From: a virus
IMG/VR virus record: IMGVR_UViG_3300025151_000038
Coordinates: 1-60,762 of that record
Direction: 5' to 3' (one strand)
Length of the DNA: 60,762 bases
Shown: positions 4,143 to 53,377 of the stretch, one piece after another
How the letters are laid out: the number at the start of each line of letters is the position of its first letter
Position numbering within the stretch: the first letter of the stretch is position 1
Notes under the pieces: model-generated
The model's input: only the letters and a program-made list of their open reading frames with translations
Database searches by the model: none
What the model was told of the DNA's origin: nothing
Translations under genes and position numbers: made by a program

Positions 4143-4178
4143 AAAAAAGCCCGCCGGTTTACATGAAACCGGCGGGCT
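4143..4178 (-). terminator. Strong Rho-independent terminator
   Basis: Perfect 13-bp stem (agcccgccggttt 4148-4160 / aaaccggcgggct 4166-4178) with a 5-nt loop, followed by TTTTTT on the minus strand. Confidence 0.85.
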
Positions 4179-4284: not shown

Positions 4285-4394
4285 ACCCCCTCGTATTCGG
4301 CAAGATACCACTCGATAAGACGTGCGGTACTCTCTTCTCTAGCCTTGGCATCAATCCGAGCCTTGGATTTGACATATAATTCCCATGGTAACAT
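4230..4394 (-). CDS. small ORF of 54 aa, below the ORF-track cutoff, with a basic C-terminus encoded by the 19-bp repeats
   Basis: gaaaggagttattgatATG ribosome-binding site. Translation is MLPWELYVKSKARIDAKAREESTARLIEWYLAEYEGVDPKRLRRSKKAKKIQKG. The three 19-bp units are read in three different frames. Confidence 0.4.
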   Translation of the reverse strand: MLPWELYVKSKARIDAKAREESTARLIEWYLAEYEGVDPKRLRRSKKAKKIQKG

Positions 4395-4402
4395 ATCAAT
4401 AA

Positions 4403-4445
4403 CTCCTTTCTATATTTAGGTTATACATTCCACGTTTACTTATCG
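4403..4445. repeat. Copy 1 of an exact 43-bp direct repeat (gene-junction cassette)
   Basis: ctcctttctatatttaggttatacattccacgtttacttatcg is identical to 4662-4704. Confidence 0.95.
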
Positions 4446-4651
4446 GCTTGCTTTGCAGTTGCAATTGCTCTTGAGGCTGTTTCGATGAACCTGTTAAGTT
4501 CTCTGAACTCAGATTCGCTGGAGCATATACTTTCCTCATTAACCATGAGGTGTATATCTACTCTATAAAGTAAGTCATCATCGTTATGGATAACTGCATG
4601 TGCTACTGCTTTTACAATCCCCGTCGTTGATGTGATTTCTTCTATATTCAT
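4436..4651 (-). CDS. hypothetical protein, 71 aa
   Basis: gaaaggaggtgagtaggtATG Shine-Dalgarno site. The last codons (..DK stop) lie inside repeat copy 1. Confidence 0.65.
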   Translation of the reverse strand: MNIEEITSTTGIVKAVAHAVIHNDDDLLYRVDIHLMVNEESICSSESEFRELNRFIETASRAIATAKQADK

Positions 4652-4661
4652 ACCTACTCAC

Positions 4662-4704
4662 CTCCTTTCTATATTTAGGTTATACATTCCACGTTTACTT
4701 ATCG
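4662..4704. repeat. Copy 2 of the exact 43-bp direct repeat
   Basis: Identical to 4403-4445. It again spans the last codons of one ORF, the spacer and the ribosome-binding site of the next ORF. Confidence 0.95.
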
Positions 4705-4916
4705 TTCTCGTTTTTCCCCAGATTGAGGAGGTCGAGTGCTTTCCAAGCCTCAGTGGGCTGGTGCGAGGGCTTATGCTTTGCCTCGTTTACTACCTTGGCA
4801 GTATTACCTGTGAAATCATACACAGGGCTGCCGGCTGTTGTCCCTACTCTGTAGGGGCTGTTGTTGTCTCTACTCATAAGATCAGTTTTGGTTGAGTTGT
4901 TTGGATGCTTCCACAT
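4695..4916 (-). CDS. hypothetical protein, 73 aa
   Basis: ORF ending ..DK stop inside repeat copy 2. Confidence 0.5.
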   Translation of the reverse strand: MWKHPNNSTKTDLMSRDNNSPYRVGTTAGSPVYDFTGNTAKVVNEAKHKPSHQPTEAWKALDLLNLGKNENDK

Positions 4917-5067
4917 CTATGAGAAAGCGACCCTTGCGGTGCTTCTCCGCGCCTTCAGGAGGTCGGCAGCCATTGGTGAATGGCGCTAGCCCACCTGATA
5001 GCTTGCGGGGCTTGTTCCGTTTCCAGCCCTGCTTGATTCGTGCATTAGGCTTGTGATATATGTACAT
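4882..5067 (-). CDS. small basic hypothetical protein, 61 aa from the internal ATG
   Basis: The ORF track gives 4882..5265. The ATG at 5067 has an aaacggaaaggaactATG ribosome-binding site. The longer N-terminal extension runs into low-complexity DNA. Confidence 0.4.
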   Translation of the reverse strand: MYIYHKPNARIKQGWKRNKPRKLSGGLAPFTNGCRPPEGAEKHRKGRFLIDVEASKQLNQN

Positions 5068-5280
5068 AGTTCCTTTCCGTTTAGGTTTACTTTCACCAGA
5101 TACGCCAGCTATCATATTGCTGGCGCATCTGTCGAAAGGCGGGTAGCTACTCATGTAACTACCCGCACTAACGAGTTGGTTTCCGTCCTGCTGCCATGCC
5201 TGGTTGCATTCCATTCCGCATCTATCTTTCGATAGCTGCCTTTTGTGCAATAGGTCATGACCCATGTGTTATGATGCCGG

Positions 5281-5369
5281 TTGCATTTTGCTTGTGCATG
5301 ATGCGTGTGCATGATGCAGGCTGCAGGATGCATTTTGCATGGTGCATGGTGCATGGTGCATGGTGCAGG
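5281..5369. repeat. TGCA(T)-rich low-complexity block with a tandem heptamer (tgcatgg x4 at 5336-5363 plus one partial unit)
   Basis: ttgcattttgc occurs twice, gtgcatgatgc occurs twice, and there are four perfect tgcatgg units. All read directly. Confidence 0.9.
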
Positions 5370-5653
5370 ACGTTCTGCGTTTATTCTTTTCGGATGCGTT
5401 ATCATAGGTCAAGCCTATGCGCCCCCTTGCCTAGTCACTGCTCTGTGACAAACTAGCCCCTTGGCACTAGCCCCCCATTGCACTATACAATGGAATTGCT
5501 AGCCCTAACCACGTCACAAGGGCGTAAGTCTTGCGCGATTTATTGACTGTTTTTTCGGCTATGTCTTAAGACGTTGGAAGACATATTGGTGCCTGAGATA
5601 TTCAGGTTCAGGATATTGGGCAACCCGCTTGCCATATGGCAAGCACTAAAGAT

Positions 5654-5903
5654 ACATCCAAGCCCTGCCGGAGCATTGCTTGGCTGTAGAGCTTTAGCCC
5701 TTGGATTGCATAGGGCTGGGATCATCCATTAAATGCCCTATGGGTAACGGCTTGTGAATAGGGACTTGCCCTGCCGGAGCATTGCAAGCCATTTAAAGCC
5801 CTTTCCGTGCCATCATGTAGGGCTTGCCCTGACAGATCATTGCAAGCCCTGTAATGGGATTTTCGCGACATCCAAGCCCTGACAGATCATTGCTTGGCTG
5901 TAG
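5654..5903. repeat. Four-member family of about 35-nt hairpin units: A1 5654-5689, B1 5758-5792, B2 5818-5851, A2 5868-5903
   Basis: Stems are ccaagc/gcttgg (A units) or (g)cttgc/gcaag(c) (B units). Each encloses a conserved 14-nt loop, cctgccggagcatt or cctgacagatcatt. Flanks are conserved within each type. Confidence 0.8.
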
Positions 5904-5910
5904 TCAATCA

Positions 5911-5980
5911 TTCACAGAATGAAGCCCTACCAGCACAATGGCTGATAGGGCTTGGATTCTGTGAACGCCTAGGCGTTCAC
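5911..5980 (-). terminator. Perfect 20-bp palindrome (5961-5980), a terminator candidate, overlapping the 3' arm of a long imperfect hairpin (5911-5965)
   Basis: gtgaacgcctaggcgttcac lies 10 nt after the stop of ORF 5991..6374. ttcacagaat (5911-5920) pairs with attctgtgaa (5956-5965), which shares gtgaa with the palindrome. There is no clear U-tract on the minus strand. Confidence 0.4.
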
Positions 5981-5990
5981 CCTTTAGTTT

Positions 5991-6374
5991 TTAGCTTTGA
6001 AGCTTGTTGAGCGTGTCAAGCTTCTCGACCATAAGCGGAATTGCAAGCTTGCCCGCCTGTTCAACTTTCACAGCATCGACGTATACAGCCTTGGCTTTCT
6101 TGCCATCCTCAAGGGAGCAAGTCCATTCAGATACAGGCTTGAATACCTTTTTACCGTGTGCCTCACGCCCACCGCTAGCGGTGAATGTCTCAGGCAATTT
6201 CTCAAGGTCTGTGATTTCAAGACGCTTGCACTCTTTCCATGCATTCATGGTTTTAGTTCTGCTGAAATCAGCAAACACCCTTTCAAGGTTGTCTACAATC
6301 AACGTTTTAGTTTCAACTGCATTTGCAGTTCCATCATTTTTGGCAGGTGTTTCCACCTTTTCTTTATTTGCCAT
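5991..6374 (-). CDS. hypothetical protein, first leftward gene, 127 aa from the ATG at 6374
   Basis: The ORF track gives 5991..6389. The predicted -10 box lies at 6381-6386, which favours the MANKEKVE start at 6374. Confidence 0.6.
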   Translation of the reverse strand: MANKEKVETPAKNDGTANAVETKTLIVDNLERVFADFSRTKTMNAWKECKRLEITDLEKLPETFTASGGREAHGKKVFKPVSEWTCSLEDGKKAKAVYVDAVKVEQAGKLAIPLMVEKLDTLNKLQS

Positions 6375-6380
6375 GCAATC

Positions 6381-6408
6381 ATTATACACCTTTTATTAAC
6401 TTAATCAA
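6381..6408 (-). promoter_or_regulatory. Sigma70-like promoter, leftward: TTGATT-16 nt-TATAAT
   Basis: The minus strand reads ttgatt aagttaataaaaggtg tataat gattgc ATG. The A of the ATG is 7 nt after the -10 box. Confidence 0.55.
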
Positions 6409-6595
6409 TACCTTGACCTTATTACAGGTAACAGAAAAGCAATCTATTTTCCTTTATTCTAAAGGCAACCTTGCGCCATTTACCATTGTTAATTAGTCAT
6501 AAGTCATTGACAATGAAGCAGTTAGCACGCCACCGGTCTCCGACCAATTTTTATATTAGCGGGTCAGCTATATATATGTGGGCGTGTGAAAAAAT

Positions 6596-6624
6596 TTGAC
6601 AAGACCTTTTTCAAGTTATTTACT
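6596..6624 (+). promoter_or_regulatory. Sigma70-like promoter, rightward: TTGACA-17 nt-TTTACT
   Basis: Consensus -35 box with a 4/6 match to the -10 consensus. The ATG of ORF 6630..6857 begins 6 nt after the -10 box. Confidence 0.35.
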
Positions 6625-6629
6625 CAATT

Positions 6630-6857
6630 ATGGATCCAGAAAAGAAGAAAAAATACTACCAAGAGAATAGAGAACAGCGGTTGGCATACCAAAAAGAATA
6701 CTACCGGAAAAACAAAAACCGGATCAAGCGGAAGAAGGAATTGAAGCAGGCAAATGACCCTTCCTGGATAGATAAACAAAGGGAATACAACAGGCAGTAT
6801 TACATCAAAAATAGGGAGCGGATTCAGCAGCAACGAGCCGAAAAAGCCGGCTTGTGA
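6630..6857 (+). CDS. small highly basic protein with three YYxxN(R/K) repeats, 75 aa
   Basis: KKYYQENREQ / EYYRKNKNR / QYYIKNRER repeats. It is the first rightward ORF. Confidence 0.6.
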   Translation: MDPEKKKKYYQENREQRLAYQKEYYRKNKNRIKRKKELKQANDPSWIDKQREYNRQYYIKNRERIQQQRAEKAGL

Positions 6858-6863
6858 GCGGGT

Positions 6864-6957
6864 AACCGCTCAGAGATTTGCAAAACCGCTCAGAGATTTG
6901 CAAAACCGCTCAGATTTTCAAAAACCGCTCAGAGATTGCAAAAACCGCTCAGAGATT
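6864..6957 (+). repeat. Iteron-like array 1: five direct copies of AACCGCTCAGA(G/T)AT(T) at 19-20-bp phasing
   Basis: Copies start at 6864, 6884, 6904, 6923 and 6943. Confidence 0.95.
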
Positions 6958-7158
6958 CACTTTTCGGGGCTAAATCGGCTCAATTCGCGTCTAACCACCA
7001 TAATTATCATTATCGTTCCGGTGGGCCAAGTTGAAAACTTTCTCAGAGAGAAAGTATAATTGTTTCTGTGATGGAATAAAATAAGTTTCCTCTATAAGAA
7101 AGTTTTATATAGGGGGGTAGCGTCAAATTCTTTTCATTTAATGCTCGCTTTTTGCTCA

Positions 7159-7233
7159 AACCGCTCAGATATTACAAAACCGCTCAGAGATTTACGAAAA
7201 CCGCTCAGAGATTATGGAAACCGCTCAGATATT
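7159..7233 (+). repeat. Iteron-like array 2: four more direct copies of the same motif
   Basis: Copies start at 7159, 7178, 7199 and 7219. The last two cover the ATG and first codons of ORF 7214..7681. Confidence 0.95.
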
Positions 7234-7681
7234 TAAATCCGAAAAACGCATCCCCATCCCCGATACCTATGGCTACGAGATAGACGAATATGGCTTTGTC
7301 TACCGCAACGGCAAACGTCTCAAGCTCCAACGCAAGGCCGGCAAGTGGTTTGCACAGGTGTACACTGTAGAAGGCAAACGTGTATCCTTCGACTCTGAAC
7401 GGTTAGCCCGTAACCTGTTTGGTGAGGACGAATACATTCTCCGGCGTAAGGATATAGAGCAGAATTATGATGTGCGAACTGTACCCGAATTCCCGCGCTA
7501 TGTAGTCACCGCCTATGGGGCTGTGTATTGCATTGACCCACCGAAACGAGGCAGGAATGCTGGCTCATGCTACCTGGTTAGTGAGTCCATCTCAAGGGAC
7601 AAGCCTTATGTGACCTTATACAAGGCTGATGGCACATGTCGCAAGAAGCAGGTTAAGTGGGTTGTAGACTCTGCGTGGTAA
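7214..7681 (+). CDS. NUMOD4-like DNA-binding protein with no nuclease motif seen, 155 aa
   Basis: Two IPxxxGYxI/VPEFPRYVVTAYGAVY segments resemble the NUMOD4 motif of homing-endonuclease DNA-binding modules. Confidence 0.5.
   Translation: METAQIFKSEKRIPIPDTYGYEIDEYGFVYRNGKRLKLQRKAGKWFAQVYTVEGKRVSFDSERLARNLFGEDEYILRRKDIEQNYDVRTVPEFPRYVVTAYGAVYCIDPPKRGRNAGSCYLVSESISRDKPYVTLYKADGTCRKKQVKWVVDSAW

Positions 7682-39997: not shown

Positions 39998-53373
<13,376 letters not shown>

Positions 53374-53377
<4 letters not shown>

What the first reader, a model, noticed from the sequence alone, without database searches (positions are those of the whole stretch)
5540..5990. Noncoding array of four hairpin units with conserved loops and compensatory stem changes (candidate structured RNA or protein-binding hairpin array)
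- Four units share a 14-nt loop, CCTG(CCGG/ACAG)A(GC/TC)ATT: A1 5654-5689, B1 5758-5792, B2 5818-5851 and A2 5868-5903.
- Their stems differ in a base-pair-preserving way: ccaagc/gcttgg in A units versus (g)cttgc/gcaag(c) in B units.
- Loop type and stem type are combined in all four ways.
- The same gcttgc/gcaagc stem also forms a perfect 18-bp palindrome at 5627-5644.
- The heptamer AAGCCCT or its complement AGGGCTT occurs about 7 times in 300 bp.
- Only one marginal 61-aa ORF lies in this region.

Covariation of this kind argues for selection on a folded structure, either RNA or DNA cruciform, rather than on a linear word. Possible roles are an sRNA cluster, an origin or packaging structure, or decoy repeats that mimic a host RNA. 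Phage RNA anti-CRISPRs that mimic CRISPR repeats are one published precedent for the last idea. I cannot tell these apart from sequence alone.
Basis: partly seen in the sequence, partly recalled or inferred. Interest (0 to 1): 0.75.

Follow-up and report, generated by a model that had tools for sequence, protein, structure and literature searches.

The report
Hairpin-rich phage noncoding RNA module
The four hairpins are real and under selection to stay base-paired, but they are best read on the opposite strand, as part of a roughly 0.9-kb structured noncoding RNA that always follows one small phage gene in a group of uncultured marine phages; its function is unknown.

Summary
Across four genomes, 91% of 195 unit base-pair cells are paired, and 7 of 13 positions show changes on both sides.

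The array is only a piece of something larger. The whole gene-free stretch 5068-5990 consists of successive hairpins: 22 covarying pairs in 120 pairs, none of 500 shuffles reaching that, and MFE z about -7.

This stretch always lies just downstream of a small gene (5991-6374, minus strand, "p132"). Every contig that carries a p132 homologue and extends far enough shows a 700-920-nt gene-free gap after it. On the p132-sense strand the gap holds 3-4 hairpins capped by UG-N-[UNCG]-N'-CA at similar offsets. The caps are UCCG here, UACG in a second clade and UUCG in a third. There are 21 caps on the sense strand and 0 on the antisense strand.

I therefore read it as a structured RNA on the window's minus strand. 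It has no Rfam match and no copy in cellular genomes. I found no support for a CRISPR-repeat mimic, a replication origin or hairpin promoters. Function is inferred only: a scaffold or stability domain, possibly bound by p132. Transcription is unproven.

The parts
5868..5901 (-). Sense-strand cap UGA-UCUG-UCA, AA/GG internal loop, CCAAGC/GCUUGG stem.
   Evidence: offset +102; -14.7 kcal/mol on the minus strand against -13.4 on the plus strand.
5818..5851 (-). Nine-bp outer stem AGGGCUUGC/GCAAGCCCU, cap UGA-UCUG-UCA.
   Evidence: offset +152; -20.1 kcal/mol, z -4.2.
5760..5793 (-). Cap UGC-UCCG-GCA.
   Evidence: offset +210.: -16.3 kcal/mol on the minus strand against -11.8 on the plus strand, where an A.C mismatch replaces a G.U pair.
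5646..5697 (-). Cap UGC-UCCG-GCA.
   Evidence: helices 6-7: three covarying pairs in the outer helix. (offset +316). (-26.3 kcal/mol, z -4.5).
5911..5965 (-). Long hairpin H13. The outer stem is TTCACAGAAT/ATTCTGTGAA. The apical helix exists in at least three different but always paired versions among relatives.
   Evidence: I3, I9; helix 14.
5961..5980 (-). Hairpin H14, 10-13 nt after the p132 stop codon. The stem GTGAACGC/GCGTTCAC is invariant; the centre is CTAG, TTAA or TTTAA. It overlaps the 3' arm of H13 by 5 nt. In the L090 clade the hairpin at this position is a canonical sense-strand terminator.
5710..5741 (-). Hairpin H9 (ATAGGGC/GCCCTAT) between units U4 and U3. It is deleted in L083.
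   Evidence: (helix 8).
5627..5644 (-). In L162 it becomes GCCTGCCA-TGG-TGGCAGGC, with a compensatory change and a 3-nt loop, so the pairing is kept but the palindrome is not.
   Evidence: helix 5.
5592..5606 (-). Hairpin H6 (CCTGA/TCAGG).
   Evidence: helix 4.
5380..5588 (-). Left module, hairpins H1-H5, including H5 at 5560-5585, H2 (GTCAC/GTGAC) and H3 (CTAGC..GCTAG). It is the most conserved segment of the locus (88-97% identity). In L198 the inner hairpin of H3 is replaced by a different one.
5294..5367 (.). Tandem array of the heptamer GTGCATG, 10.7 copies here. Copy number varies among relatives.
5068..5293 (-). Proximal part of the gene-free region. It contains the hairpin CTTTC-GA-CAGAT../..ATCTG-GT-GAAAG (5090-5138) just upstream of the ribosome-binding site of the next gene. 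That hairpin is also conserved in the L090 clade.
   Evidence: (I2).
5991..6374 (-). Gene p132 (127 aa from the ATG at 6374; the ORF finder lists 132 aa from a GTG at 6389). It has no family assignment. In every contig that carries a homologue and extends far enough, the structured gap follows it.
   Evidence: AlphaFold2 model with pLDDT 73. No significant fold match.
6381..6408 (-). Sigma-70-like promoter TTGATT-16-TATAAT. It would place the transcription start at about the p132 ATG, giving a leaderless mRNA. This is inferred.
4143..4178 (-). Canonical minus-strand intrinsic terminator (AGCCCGCCGGTTT...AAACCGGCGGGCT followed by T6). It is the first such signal downstream of p132 found on the minus strand and closes the inferred leftward operon.
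   Evidence: A 42-43-nt stretch of it is 98-100% identical in relatives.
4882..5067 (-). Small gene p61 with an AGGA ribosome-binding site, the first gene after the structured region. The 127-aa ORF 4882-5265 is an over-extension of it.

Best explanation
The four hairpins are arms of a long structured noncoding RNA that is read from the window's minus strand, the same sense as the flanking genes.

The RNA domain spans roughly 5068-5990. It lies directly 3' of the small gene p132 (5991-6374).

Shown:
- The region is a chain of at least 14 hairpins held by compensatory substitutions.
- The four repeated units share one architecture: an outer stem of free sequence, a conserved symmetric internal loop (AA/GG on the sense strand), an invariant U-G/C-A step, one freely covarying pair, and a four-base cap that is usually of the UNCG type.
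- The same gene-plus-gap arrangement, with 3-4 such caps at similar offsets, recurs in diverged relatives.

Inferred:
- It is transcribed leftward, from the promoter-like site at 6408-6381 or by read-through, inside an operon that ends at the terminator at 4178-4143.
- The UNCG-capped arms act as very stable folding nuclei and as barriers to nucleases and Rho. They keep a 0.9-kb untranslated RNA intact.
- Their invariant internal-loop and UG/CA features form a four-copy docking platform for a protein. The co-inherited p132 is the first candidate.

Because the module is present in few relatives and sits among small accessory genes, its biological role is probably an accessory, host-directed function early in infection rather than a core function.
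For: 1. Structure is under selection.
- In the 16 units, 91.3% of cells are paired against 70% in shuffles (0 of 500 reach it). Thirty-nine cells have changes on both sides against 16.4 expected, and controls with the 3' partner shifted by 1-3 columns give about 30-40% paired.
- On the four-genome alignment, 120 local pairs are 96% paired. Twenty-two pairs changed on both sides against 9.1 in shuffles (0 of 500) and 0-2 in the shifted-partner controls.
- MFE z is -6.8 on the plus strand and -7.1 on the minus strand.

2. The region is under purifying selection.
- The array is 78-92% identical and the left module 88-97% identical between genomes. The adjacent p132 coding sequence is 69-71% identical to L083 and L194.

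3. The noncoding gap travels with p132.
- Eleven p132 homologues were found among 5.8 billion proteins.
- Every contig long enough to show it has a 697-923-nt gene-free gap after the gene, at the same genome position.
- Only 2 of 79 relatives retrieved through the portal gene carry p132. Those two (L083, L090) are the only ones in which an array was found.

4. Evidence for the strand and for RNA.
- The strict cap motif TG-N-T-N-CG-N'-CA occurs 21 times on the sense strand of 6.4 kb of gaps and never on the antisense strand. It occurs 3 times in 120 kb outside the gaps. The background is 0.014 per kb per strand.
- The caps are UCCG, UACG or UUCG in three diverged clades. UNCG is a classic extra-stable RNA tetraloop class, first seen in phage T4 mRNA (PMC4371310).
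- Folding is more stable on the sense strand for all four units, for the whole region (-244 against -227 kcal/mol) and in both consensus folds.
- The flanking genes, the AT skew and the only canonical terminators (window 4178-4143; after p132 in L090) are all in the same sense.

5. The A and B units keep the loop orientation while three stem pairs are flipped. Recognition of double-stranded DNA by a dimeric protein would not tolerate that.
Against: - There is no transcript evidence of any kind. The one sequencing run I could check is a DNA virome.
- In the window's own clade, the G.U versus A.C count in helices common to both strands is indecisive: 6 against about 8. In the L090 clade it is 5 against 3.
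- Five of the 16 caps in the window's clade are not UNCG: UCUG twice in this very window and CCCG three times in L083. One cap in L201 is CACG.
- In the L090 clade a conserved intrinsic terminator sits between the p132-like gene and the array. There the array needs read-through or a promoter that I could not find.
- Terminator-like hairpins followed by T-tracts occur on the + strand at 5362, 5522 and 5961, although the T-tract after 5961-5980 is not conserved.
- Only 4-5 genomes per clade are available and they are related, which inflates shuffle-based statistics.
- The p132 model resembles no known RNA-binding fold.
- UNCG loops are not known as protein-binding sites, so the docking-platform step rests on the internal loop alone.
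Confidence: 0.6

Rival explanations
1. Pure cis-acting mRNA stability and processing elements. The UNCG-capped hairpins only block 3'-to-5' exonucleases and Rho so that the p132 mRNA and the downstream cistrons are expressed at different levels. No trans-acting RNA or ribonucleoprotein function is involved.
For: - The first hairpin lies 10-13 nt after the p132 stop codon.
- UNCG hairpins were first described in T4 mRNA and are considered autonomous stabilising elements that bind nothing.
- In the L090 clade the first hairpin is a real terminator.
- No partner protein was identified.
Against: - A barrier does not need 0.7-0.9 kb.
- Long unpaired stretches are nearly invariant: the left module is 88-97% identical, and in the L090 clade most of the variation lies in the hairpin stems, with long stretches of the distal part identical in all four genomes.
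- The internal loop and the UG/CA step are invariant in all 16 units while everything else covaries. That points to specific recognition or tertiary contacts.
Confidence: 0.25
2. DNA-level hairpins or cruciforms: a replication origin, a primase-loading or packaging signal, or N4-type hairpin promoters used by a virion RNA polymerase.
For: - Watson-Crick covariation is symmetric, so DNA hairpins cannot be excluded from covariation alone.
- The G.T and A.C counts are similar in the window's clade.
- The locus is within 1 kb of a switch in gene orientation and GC skew.
- The phage encodes a 4459-aa protein of unknown function.
Against: - The hairpins have conserved internal loops and mismatches, which disfavour cruciform extrusion.
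- GC content is about 50% and there is no AT-rich unwinding element.
- The module is absent from about 97% of relatives that share the same replication and packaging genes. An essential origin or packaging site would not be.
- Better origin-like repeats lie at 6864-7233.
- N4 promoters, from my own knowledge of Glucksmann 1992 and Gleghorn 2008, have 5-7-bp stems, 3-nt loops, and one promoter per early transcription unit. Here four units lie in 250 nt with no genes between them.
- The strand-asymmetric UNCG caps (21 against 0) have no rationale in DNA.
Confidence: 0.12
3. One or several small RNAs transcribed from the + strand, the orientation in which the reader described the units, antisense to the flanking operon.
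For: - There are three + strand terminator-like hairpins with T-rich tails, at 5362-5381, 5522-5536 and 5961-5980. The T-tracts after the first two are conserved.
- Some one-sided changes are G.U only on the + strand: H6 in L162 and the outer stem of H13 in L083.
Against: - No convincing + strand promoter exists, and the TTGACT at 5543 is not conserved.
- The T-tail after 5961-5980 is not conserved.
- The + strand is T-rich anyway because the genes lie on the other strand, which inflates terminator-like hits.
- The + strand caps CGGA, CAGA, CGGG and CGUA belong to no stable loop class, and the + strand units are less stable.
- The cap motif shows complete strand asymmetry across clades.
Confidence: 0.1
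4. Decoy repeats that mimic a host RNA: CRISPR repeats (RNA anti-CRISPRs, Racr), a type III antitoxin such as ToxI, or GGA-loop binding sites that sponge CsrA/RsmA.
For: - Unit length (about 34-36 nt) and hairpin shape resemble some CRISPR repeats.
- Phage-encoded solitary repeat units are documented (PMC10651486).
- On the + strand, 11 of 16 loops read CGGA, which contains the GGA of CsrA sites.
Against: - No CRISPR-DR or other Rfam family matches.
- The unit pattern is found only as scattered single chance hits in 185,579 species genomes and 241 million metagenome records. The only multi-copy arrays of the unit are in the related phage contigs.
- The A and B units have different stems, so they cannot both copy one repeat.
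- Spacing is irregular, 50-106 nt.
- GGA is absent from 5 of 16 units and from the whole L090 clade.
- The units are not head-to-tail identical repeats next to a toxin gene.
Confidence: 0.04

Closest known systems
C(UUCG)G / UNCG-capped hairpins in phage T4 mRNA (Tuerk et al. 1988, as recounted in PMC4371310)
   Same: These are short hairpins in untranslated phage mRNA, capped by UNCG-type tetraloops, with stem sequence free to vary. They are presumed to act as folding nuclei and stabilisers.
   Different: Here 3-4 units share an extra conserved internal loop and a UG/CA step. They sit in a 0.7-0.9-kb conserved noncoding domain tied to one gene family. Five of the 16 caps deviate from UNCG.
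Large ornate phage-associated noncoding RNAs (GOLLD, ROOL; PMC12286853, PMC5737381)
   Same: They are several hundred nucleotides long and multi-hairpin. They are sporadically distributed in phages and prophages, have no known function, and were identified by covariation.
   Different: There is no sequence or structure match to the Rfam models. This element has internally repeated arms and a dedicated neighbouring protein gene. Nothing is known about oligomerisation.
Multi-hairpin protein-sponge RNAs (CsrB, RsmY/Z; own knowledge)
   Same: Several similar short hairpins in one RNA, with conserved apical features and variable stems. Multi-copy protein docking is a plausible function.
   Different: The defining GGA loop motif is not conserved on either strand.
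RNA anti-CRISPRs (Racr; PMC10651486)
   Same: Phage-encoded repeat-like hairpin units in noncoding DNA.
   Different: No matching CRISPR repeat or array was found anywhere. There are two stem types, and the spacing is irregular.
Phage N4 hairpin promoters for the virion RNA polymerase (own knowledge)
   Same: A hairpin-forming sequence with conserved features near early genes, in a phage that also encodes a giant protein.
   Different: The stem and loop geometry differs. Four copies lie in 250 nt without intervening genes. The element is absent from most relatives, and no RNA polymerase homology was detected.
Lambda N / nut boxB antitermination (own knowledge)
   Same: A small early protein gene next to RNA hairpins in the same transcript.
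   Different: The hairpins lie downstream of the gene, and in one clade downstream of its terminator. There is no boxA or boxB similarity. p132 is predicted to be a folded alpha-hairpin with a beta-hairpin, not a disordered arginine-rich peptide.

Membership tests
UNCG-capped RNA hairpins (structural class) | A four-base loop U-N-C-G closed by a Watson-Crick pair, on the transcribed strand. | tested here: met
   On the p132-sense strand, 11 of 16 caps in the window's clade are UCCG. Nearly all caps in the L090 clade are UACG, with one CACG, and L198 has UUCG. There are 21 sense hits and 0 antisense hits. The exceptions are UCUG twice (both in this window) and CCCG three times. Transcription of that strand was not tested.
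Any described RNA family (Rfam 15, including GOLLD, ROOL, CRISPR-DR, riboswitches) | A score at or above the family's gathering threshold. | tested here: not met
   No match for the window or for 17 related loci. With the permissive threshold, only generic hairpin hits far below cut-off appeared.
RNA anti-CRISPR (Racr) / solitary CRISPR repeat units | The unit resembles the repeat of a CRISPR array present in cellular genomes. | tested here: not met
   The best CRISPR-DR hit is 13.8 bits against a cut-off of 38. The exact pattern scan gives 11 single scattered hits in 185,579 genomes. In metagenomes the only multi-copy arrays of the unit are in the related phage contigs. Caveat: only the strict pattern was scanned, and the host is unknown.
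RNA anti-CRISPR (Racr) / solitary CRISPR repeat units | The units are copies of a single repeat sequence. | tested here: not met
   The A and B units differ at three stem pairs that are flipped.
N4-type hairpin promoters | A 5-7-bp stem with a 3-nt purine-centred loop, and one promoter ahead of each early transcription unit (own knowledge). | tested here: not met
   The units have a 4-nt cap on a 3-bp stem, then an internal loop. Four units lie within 250 nt with no ORF between them.
N4-type hairpin promoters | A virion RNA polymerase is encoded by the phage. | tested here: inconclusive
   The 4459-aa ORF has no Pfam, PHROG or PDB-sequence match. No structure-based test was run.
CsrB/RsmZ-type CsrA sponge | GGA in the loops of most hairpins. 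| tested here: not met
   On the + strand GGA is in 11 of 16 units and in none of the L090 clade. The sense strand has none.
Type III toxin-antitoxin antitoxin RNA (ToxI-like) | Head-to-tail identical repeats of about 34-45 nt, directly upstream of an endoribonuclease toxin gene (own knowledge). | tested here: not met
   The units are 50-106 nt apart with unrelated spacers and two stem types. No tandem-repeat call was returned for the unit array. The neighbouring proteins match no Pfam, PHROG or NCBIfam family.
Iteron-type replication origin | Same-sequence direct repeats next to an AT-rich unwinding region, present in all relatives with the same replication genes. | tested here: not met
   Stem sequences differ between units, and GC is 0.48-0.51. 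The element is absent from 77 of 79 relatives retrieved through the portal gene. Better candidates lie at 6864-7233.
Rho-independent terminators | A GC-rich stem followed by a U-tract on the transcribed strand. | tested here: not met
   No minus-strand terminator-like site occurs in 4800-7300. The + strand site at 5961-5980 loses its T-tract in relatives. The L090 post-stop hairpin does qualify, as does window 4178-4143.

The most novel reading that the evidence does not exclude
p132 and the roughly 0.9-kb RNA form a dedicated phage ribonucleoprotein. It would be a new class of large phage noncoding RNA with its own protein partner. The four UNCG-capped arms would dock p132 oligomers or capture a host RNA-binding factor. 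The complex would act early in infection to disarm or redirect a host process, such as an RNA-sensing defence or RNA decay.
Probability: 0.2. Interest if true: 0.8.

Novelty: new variant of a known kind. Interest (0 to 1): 0.6.

Why it matters
Large structured noncoding RNAs carried by phages are few, and almost none has a known function. This one has three useful properties.

- It is defined by unusually dense covariation for so few sequences.
- Its repeated architecture gives clear mutational handles.
- It is strictly linked to one small protein family, which gives an immediate biochemical experiment: does p132 bind the arms?

It also corrects the strand and the boundaries of the original finding, and it removes the CRISPR-mimic and origin readings. 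If the RNA and protein work together, it would be a new type of phage ribonucleoprotein from abundant, uncultured marine phages.

Tried and rejected
- **Rfam.** Gathering and permissive thresholds on the window and 17 related loci found nothing. No tRNA or tmRNA was found.
- **GenBank phages.** No DNA or portal or terminase protein match. DNA polymerase is at most 27% identical. The lineage has no cultured relative.
- **Recurrent metagenome hits.** The single hits 'CAAGCCCTGCCTGAGCATTGCTTGG' looked like a host homologue. They lie inside a small membrane-protein ORF and are chance matches.
- **Unit covariance model.** Across 1.44 Mb of relatives it found only the 12 training units, and nhmmer found only L083. 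The deeper homologues surfaced only through the neighbouring protein.
- **Viral-contig scan.** A scan for paired TGATACGTCA caps returned the L090 contig plus 13 coding tandem repeats that are unrelated.
- **Strand call from G.U against A.C counts.** This was indecisive.
- **p132 function.** Pfam, PHROG, NCBIfam and PDB sequence searches were empty. The first AlphaFold2 model had pLDDT 40. The second had pLDDT 73, but Foldseek returned only generic coiled-coil, prefoldin-like similarity.
- **Logan contig L197.** I hoped it came from a metatranscriptome. It comes from a DNA virome.
- **Other readings considered and dropped.**
  - REP/RAYT-type elements: the GTAG tail is on the wrong side and is not conserved.
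  - Integron attC sites: there are no R-box sequences and I found no integrase.
  - Long-range A1-H13 pairing (11 nt, perfect): it is not conserved in L083.
Full report

- The core GCCCTG-N-C-N-GA-N-CATTGC occurs four times, at 5662, 5768, 5826 and 5876 (+ strand), and nowhere else in 60.8 kb. That is 4 matches against 0.14 expected.
- The stems, the 18-nt palindrome at 5627-5644 and the excess of AAGCCCT are as stated.
- ORFs in the region are short. Relatives differ by indels that are not multiples of three, so the region is not coding.
- The '14-nt loop' actually folds into a 2x2 internal loop, a 3-bp stem and a four-base cap. The third pair of that stem is C-G or A-T and is never mismatched.

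**Context.**

- The window is almost a whole contig of about 63 kb from an uncultured marine phage.
- The phage encodes a family-A DNA polymerase, a DUF5906 primase-helicase, a DUF2800 exonuclease, an SNF2-type helicase, a large terminase and a C5 methyltransferase.
- It has no detectable cultured relative.
- About 80 related IMG/VR contigs share the portal gene at 40-89% identity.
- The finding lies in a leftward (minus-strand) block of small accessory genes.
- The gene caller of the source assembly finds no gene for 1.3 kb after p132. I place the true gene-free stretch at 5068-5990, between p132 (5991-6374) and a small conserved ORF, p61 (4882-5067).

**Homologues of the array.** Sequence searches found the array in only a few other contigs.

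- L083 (the same contig as L177) has all four units; L199 carries a near-identical array. L162 and L194 also each have all four units in the same order. L195, L192 and L193 carry fragments.
- Within a genome the caps are homogenised: L162 has CCGGAG four times, L194 has ACGGAT four times, and L083 has ACGGGT three times plus ACGGAT once. The two A units also change together.
- Across the 16 units, 91.3% of cells are paired against 70% in shuffles. Seven of 13 pairs carry changes on both sides. Controls with the 3' partner shifted by 1-3 columns drop to about 30-40% paired.

**The whole region is structured.**

- On the four-genome alignment, a set of 120 local pairs predicted on both strands is 96% paired.
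- Twenty-two of those pairs changed on both sides, against 9.1 in shuffles (0 of 500) and 0-2 in the shifted-partner controls.
- Some hairpins exist in three different, always paired versions: H2 as GTCAC, GTCGC or GTTAC, and the apical helix of H13.
- The 18-nt palindrome becomes an 8-bp stem with a 3-nt loop in L162. Pairing is conserved; dyad symmetry is not.
- MFE z-scores are about -7 on both strands.
- The noncoding DNA is more conserved than the neighbouring p132 gene, and the left module (5380-5588) is more conserved than the portal gene.

**The link to p132.**

- A weak tblastn hit led to L090, which carries a p132 homologue of 35% identity.
- Downstream of that gene, in the same sense, lies a 706-nt ORF-poor region with MFE z of -11.7.
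- That region contains a hairpin right after the stop codon, a 20-bp perfect hairpin and three direct-repeat hairpins ATA[G/T]TGA-CGTA-TCA[C/A]TAT.
- A profile search then found 11 family members among 5.8 billion proteins.
- In every contig long enough to show it, the gene is followed by a 697-849-nt gap without genes, at the same genome position.
- Among 79 relatives retrieved through the portal gene, only L083 and L090 carry the gene. An array was found only in those two. L085, checked directly, has small ORFs there instead.

**Strand and molecule.**

- On the p132-sense strand the gaps carry 3-4 hairpins capped by UG-N-[four bases]-N'-CA at similar offsets from the stop codon. Offsets are +102, +152, +210 and +316 here, and +122, +163, +203 and +286 in L090.
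- The caps are UCCG (11 of 16 in this clade), UACG (L090 clade) and UUCG (L198, in a unit with a 3x3 internal loop). The variants are UCUG, CCCG and CACG.
- The strict motif occurs 21 times on the sense strand of 6.4 kb of gaps, never on the antisense strand, and 3 times in 120 kb outside. The background is 0.014 per kb per strand.
- UNCG is one of the two classic over-represented, extra-stable RNA tetraloop classes. UUCG was first noticed in phage T4 mRNA (PMC4371310).
- Units and whole regions fold more stably in the sense orientation.
- In the L090 clade several one-sided changes are G.U in the sense strand, but the counts are small: 5 against 3 there, and 6 against about 8 in the window's clade.
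- Gene orientation, AT skew and the only canonical terminators are all in this sense.

**Transcription model (inferred).**

- A good sigma-70-like promoter at 6408-6381 would start transcription at about the p132 ATG.
- The scan of 4800-7300 found no minus-strand terminator. The first one I found downstream is the strong one at 4178-4143.
- The structured region would therefore be an internal untranslated part of an operon: p132, RNA domain, p61, p73, p71, p54.
- A second promoter-like site (TTGACC-18-AAGAAT, 5412-5383) sits at the left edge of the hairpin domain.
- In the L090 clade a conserved terminator follows the p132-like gene. Expression of the array there needs read-through or another promoter. 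This is the main weakness of the model.

**Function.** Nothing identifies the function directly.

- The units keep their orientation while three stem pairs are flipped between the A and B types. The internal loop (AA/GG on the sense strand) and the UG/CA step are invariant in 16 of 16 units.
- That argues for a folded, strand-specific element with a recognised motif, not for a double-stranded DNA site.
- UNCG caps themselves are regarded as inert stabilisers.
- I therefore propose that the arms are rigid, nuclease- and Rho-resistant folding nuclei of a large RNA domain, and that their internal loops are docking sites. p132 is the first candidate partner because the gene and the RNA are always found together.
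- The p132 model (pLDDT 73: helix, beta-hairpin, long helix) has no significant structural neighbour.
- The cis-only reading, mRNA stabiliser or insulator, is the strongest rival.

**Rejected readings.**

- *CRISPR-repeat or other host-RNA mimic.* There is no Rfam CRISPR-DR match, and the unit occurs in arrays only in these phage contigs. Metagenomes and 185,579 species genomes give only scattered chance hits, some of them inside a coding gene.
- *CsrA sponge.* GGA is not conserved.
- *Type III antitoxin.* The units are not head-to-tail repeats.
- *Origin or packaging site.* GC is about 50%, the units are not same-sequence iterons, and the element is absent from about 97% of relatives. Better iteron-like repeats lie at 6864-7233.
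- *N4-type hairpin promoters.* The geometry and the arrangement are wrong, and no RNA polymerase was detected.

**Verdict.** This is a real, selected, structured element. It is most likely a previously undescribed large noncoding RNA domain tied to a small orphan protein family in uncultured marine phages. The finding's coordinates cover only its repeated core, viewed from the antisense strand.

Noticed in passing
window 6864-6957 and 7158-7233: Two tandem arrays of a 20-nt repeat (AACCGCTCAGAGATTTGCAA, 4.8 and 3.8 copies) flank a 200-nt spacer. The spacer holds the best sigma-70-like promoter of the region (TTGAAA-18-TATAAT, 7031-7060, + strand). The arrays lie between the small basic-protein gene (6630-6857) and the HNH-like gene (7214-7681). 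Self-hits suggest that L162 has them too. This is a candidate operator array or origin.
   Followed up: partly
window 5294-5367: A tandem array of 10.7 copies of the heptamer GTGCATG inside the same gene-free region. L083 has about 3 copies and L162 about 4-5, so the tract is hypervariable.
   Followed up: partly
window 5380-5588: The left module of the noncoding region is the most conserved stretch of the locus, 88-97% identical and above the portal gene. On the minus strand it has four G-tracts in GGGCTAG-like repeats. In L198 the inner hairpin of H3 is replaced by an unrelated 9-bp hairpin at the same place.
   Followed up: partly
window 6374-6408 (minus strand): The promoter-like TTGATT-16-TATAAT ends 6 nt before the p132 ATG. 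The p132 mRNA would therefore be leaderless.
   Followed up: no
window 4392-4445 and 4648-4700 (minus strand): A nearly identical module of about 45 nt, GATAAGTAAACGTGGAATGTATAACCTAAATATAGAAAGGAG, precedes two successive small genes. A related version precedes p61. It may be a repeated translation-initiation or promoter cassette.
   Followed up: partly
window 39998-53377 (+): A 4459-aa ORF with no Pfam, PHROG or PDB-sequence match. It contains proline/threonine-rich and PE-repeat linkers. It may be a giant virion or internal protein.
   Followed up: partly
L162 6856-7056, L198 649-825 (and L083/L199): A 58-66-aa coiled-coil ORF (…SKSEM[VI]DY…RNW[DN]ARQKEC[RQ]RLRK…ELQADNKELR…) sits between the structured region and p61 in relatives. 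It is missing from the window.
   Followed up: no
L165 (Ga0247723_1019692), 86-1400: An unrelated contig with a repeat 'AACATGCCCTG[C/T]CA[G/T]GGCATTGCATGC' spaced about 320 nt apart. The pattern scan picked it up by chance.
   Followed up: no
window 6630-6857 (+): A 75-aa, very basic protein with an internally repeated motif (KKYYQENREQRLAYQKEYYRKNKNRI / REYNRQYYIKNRERI). It is conserved upstream of the portal module in most relatives.
   Followed up: no
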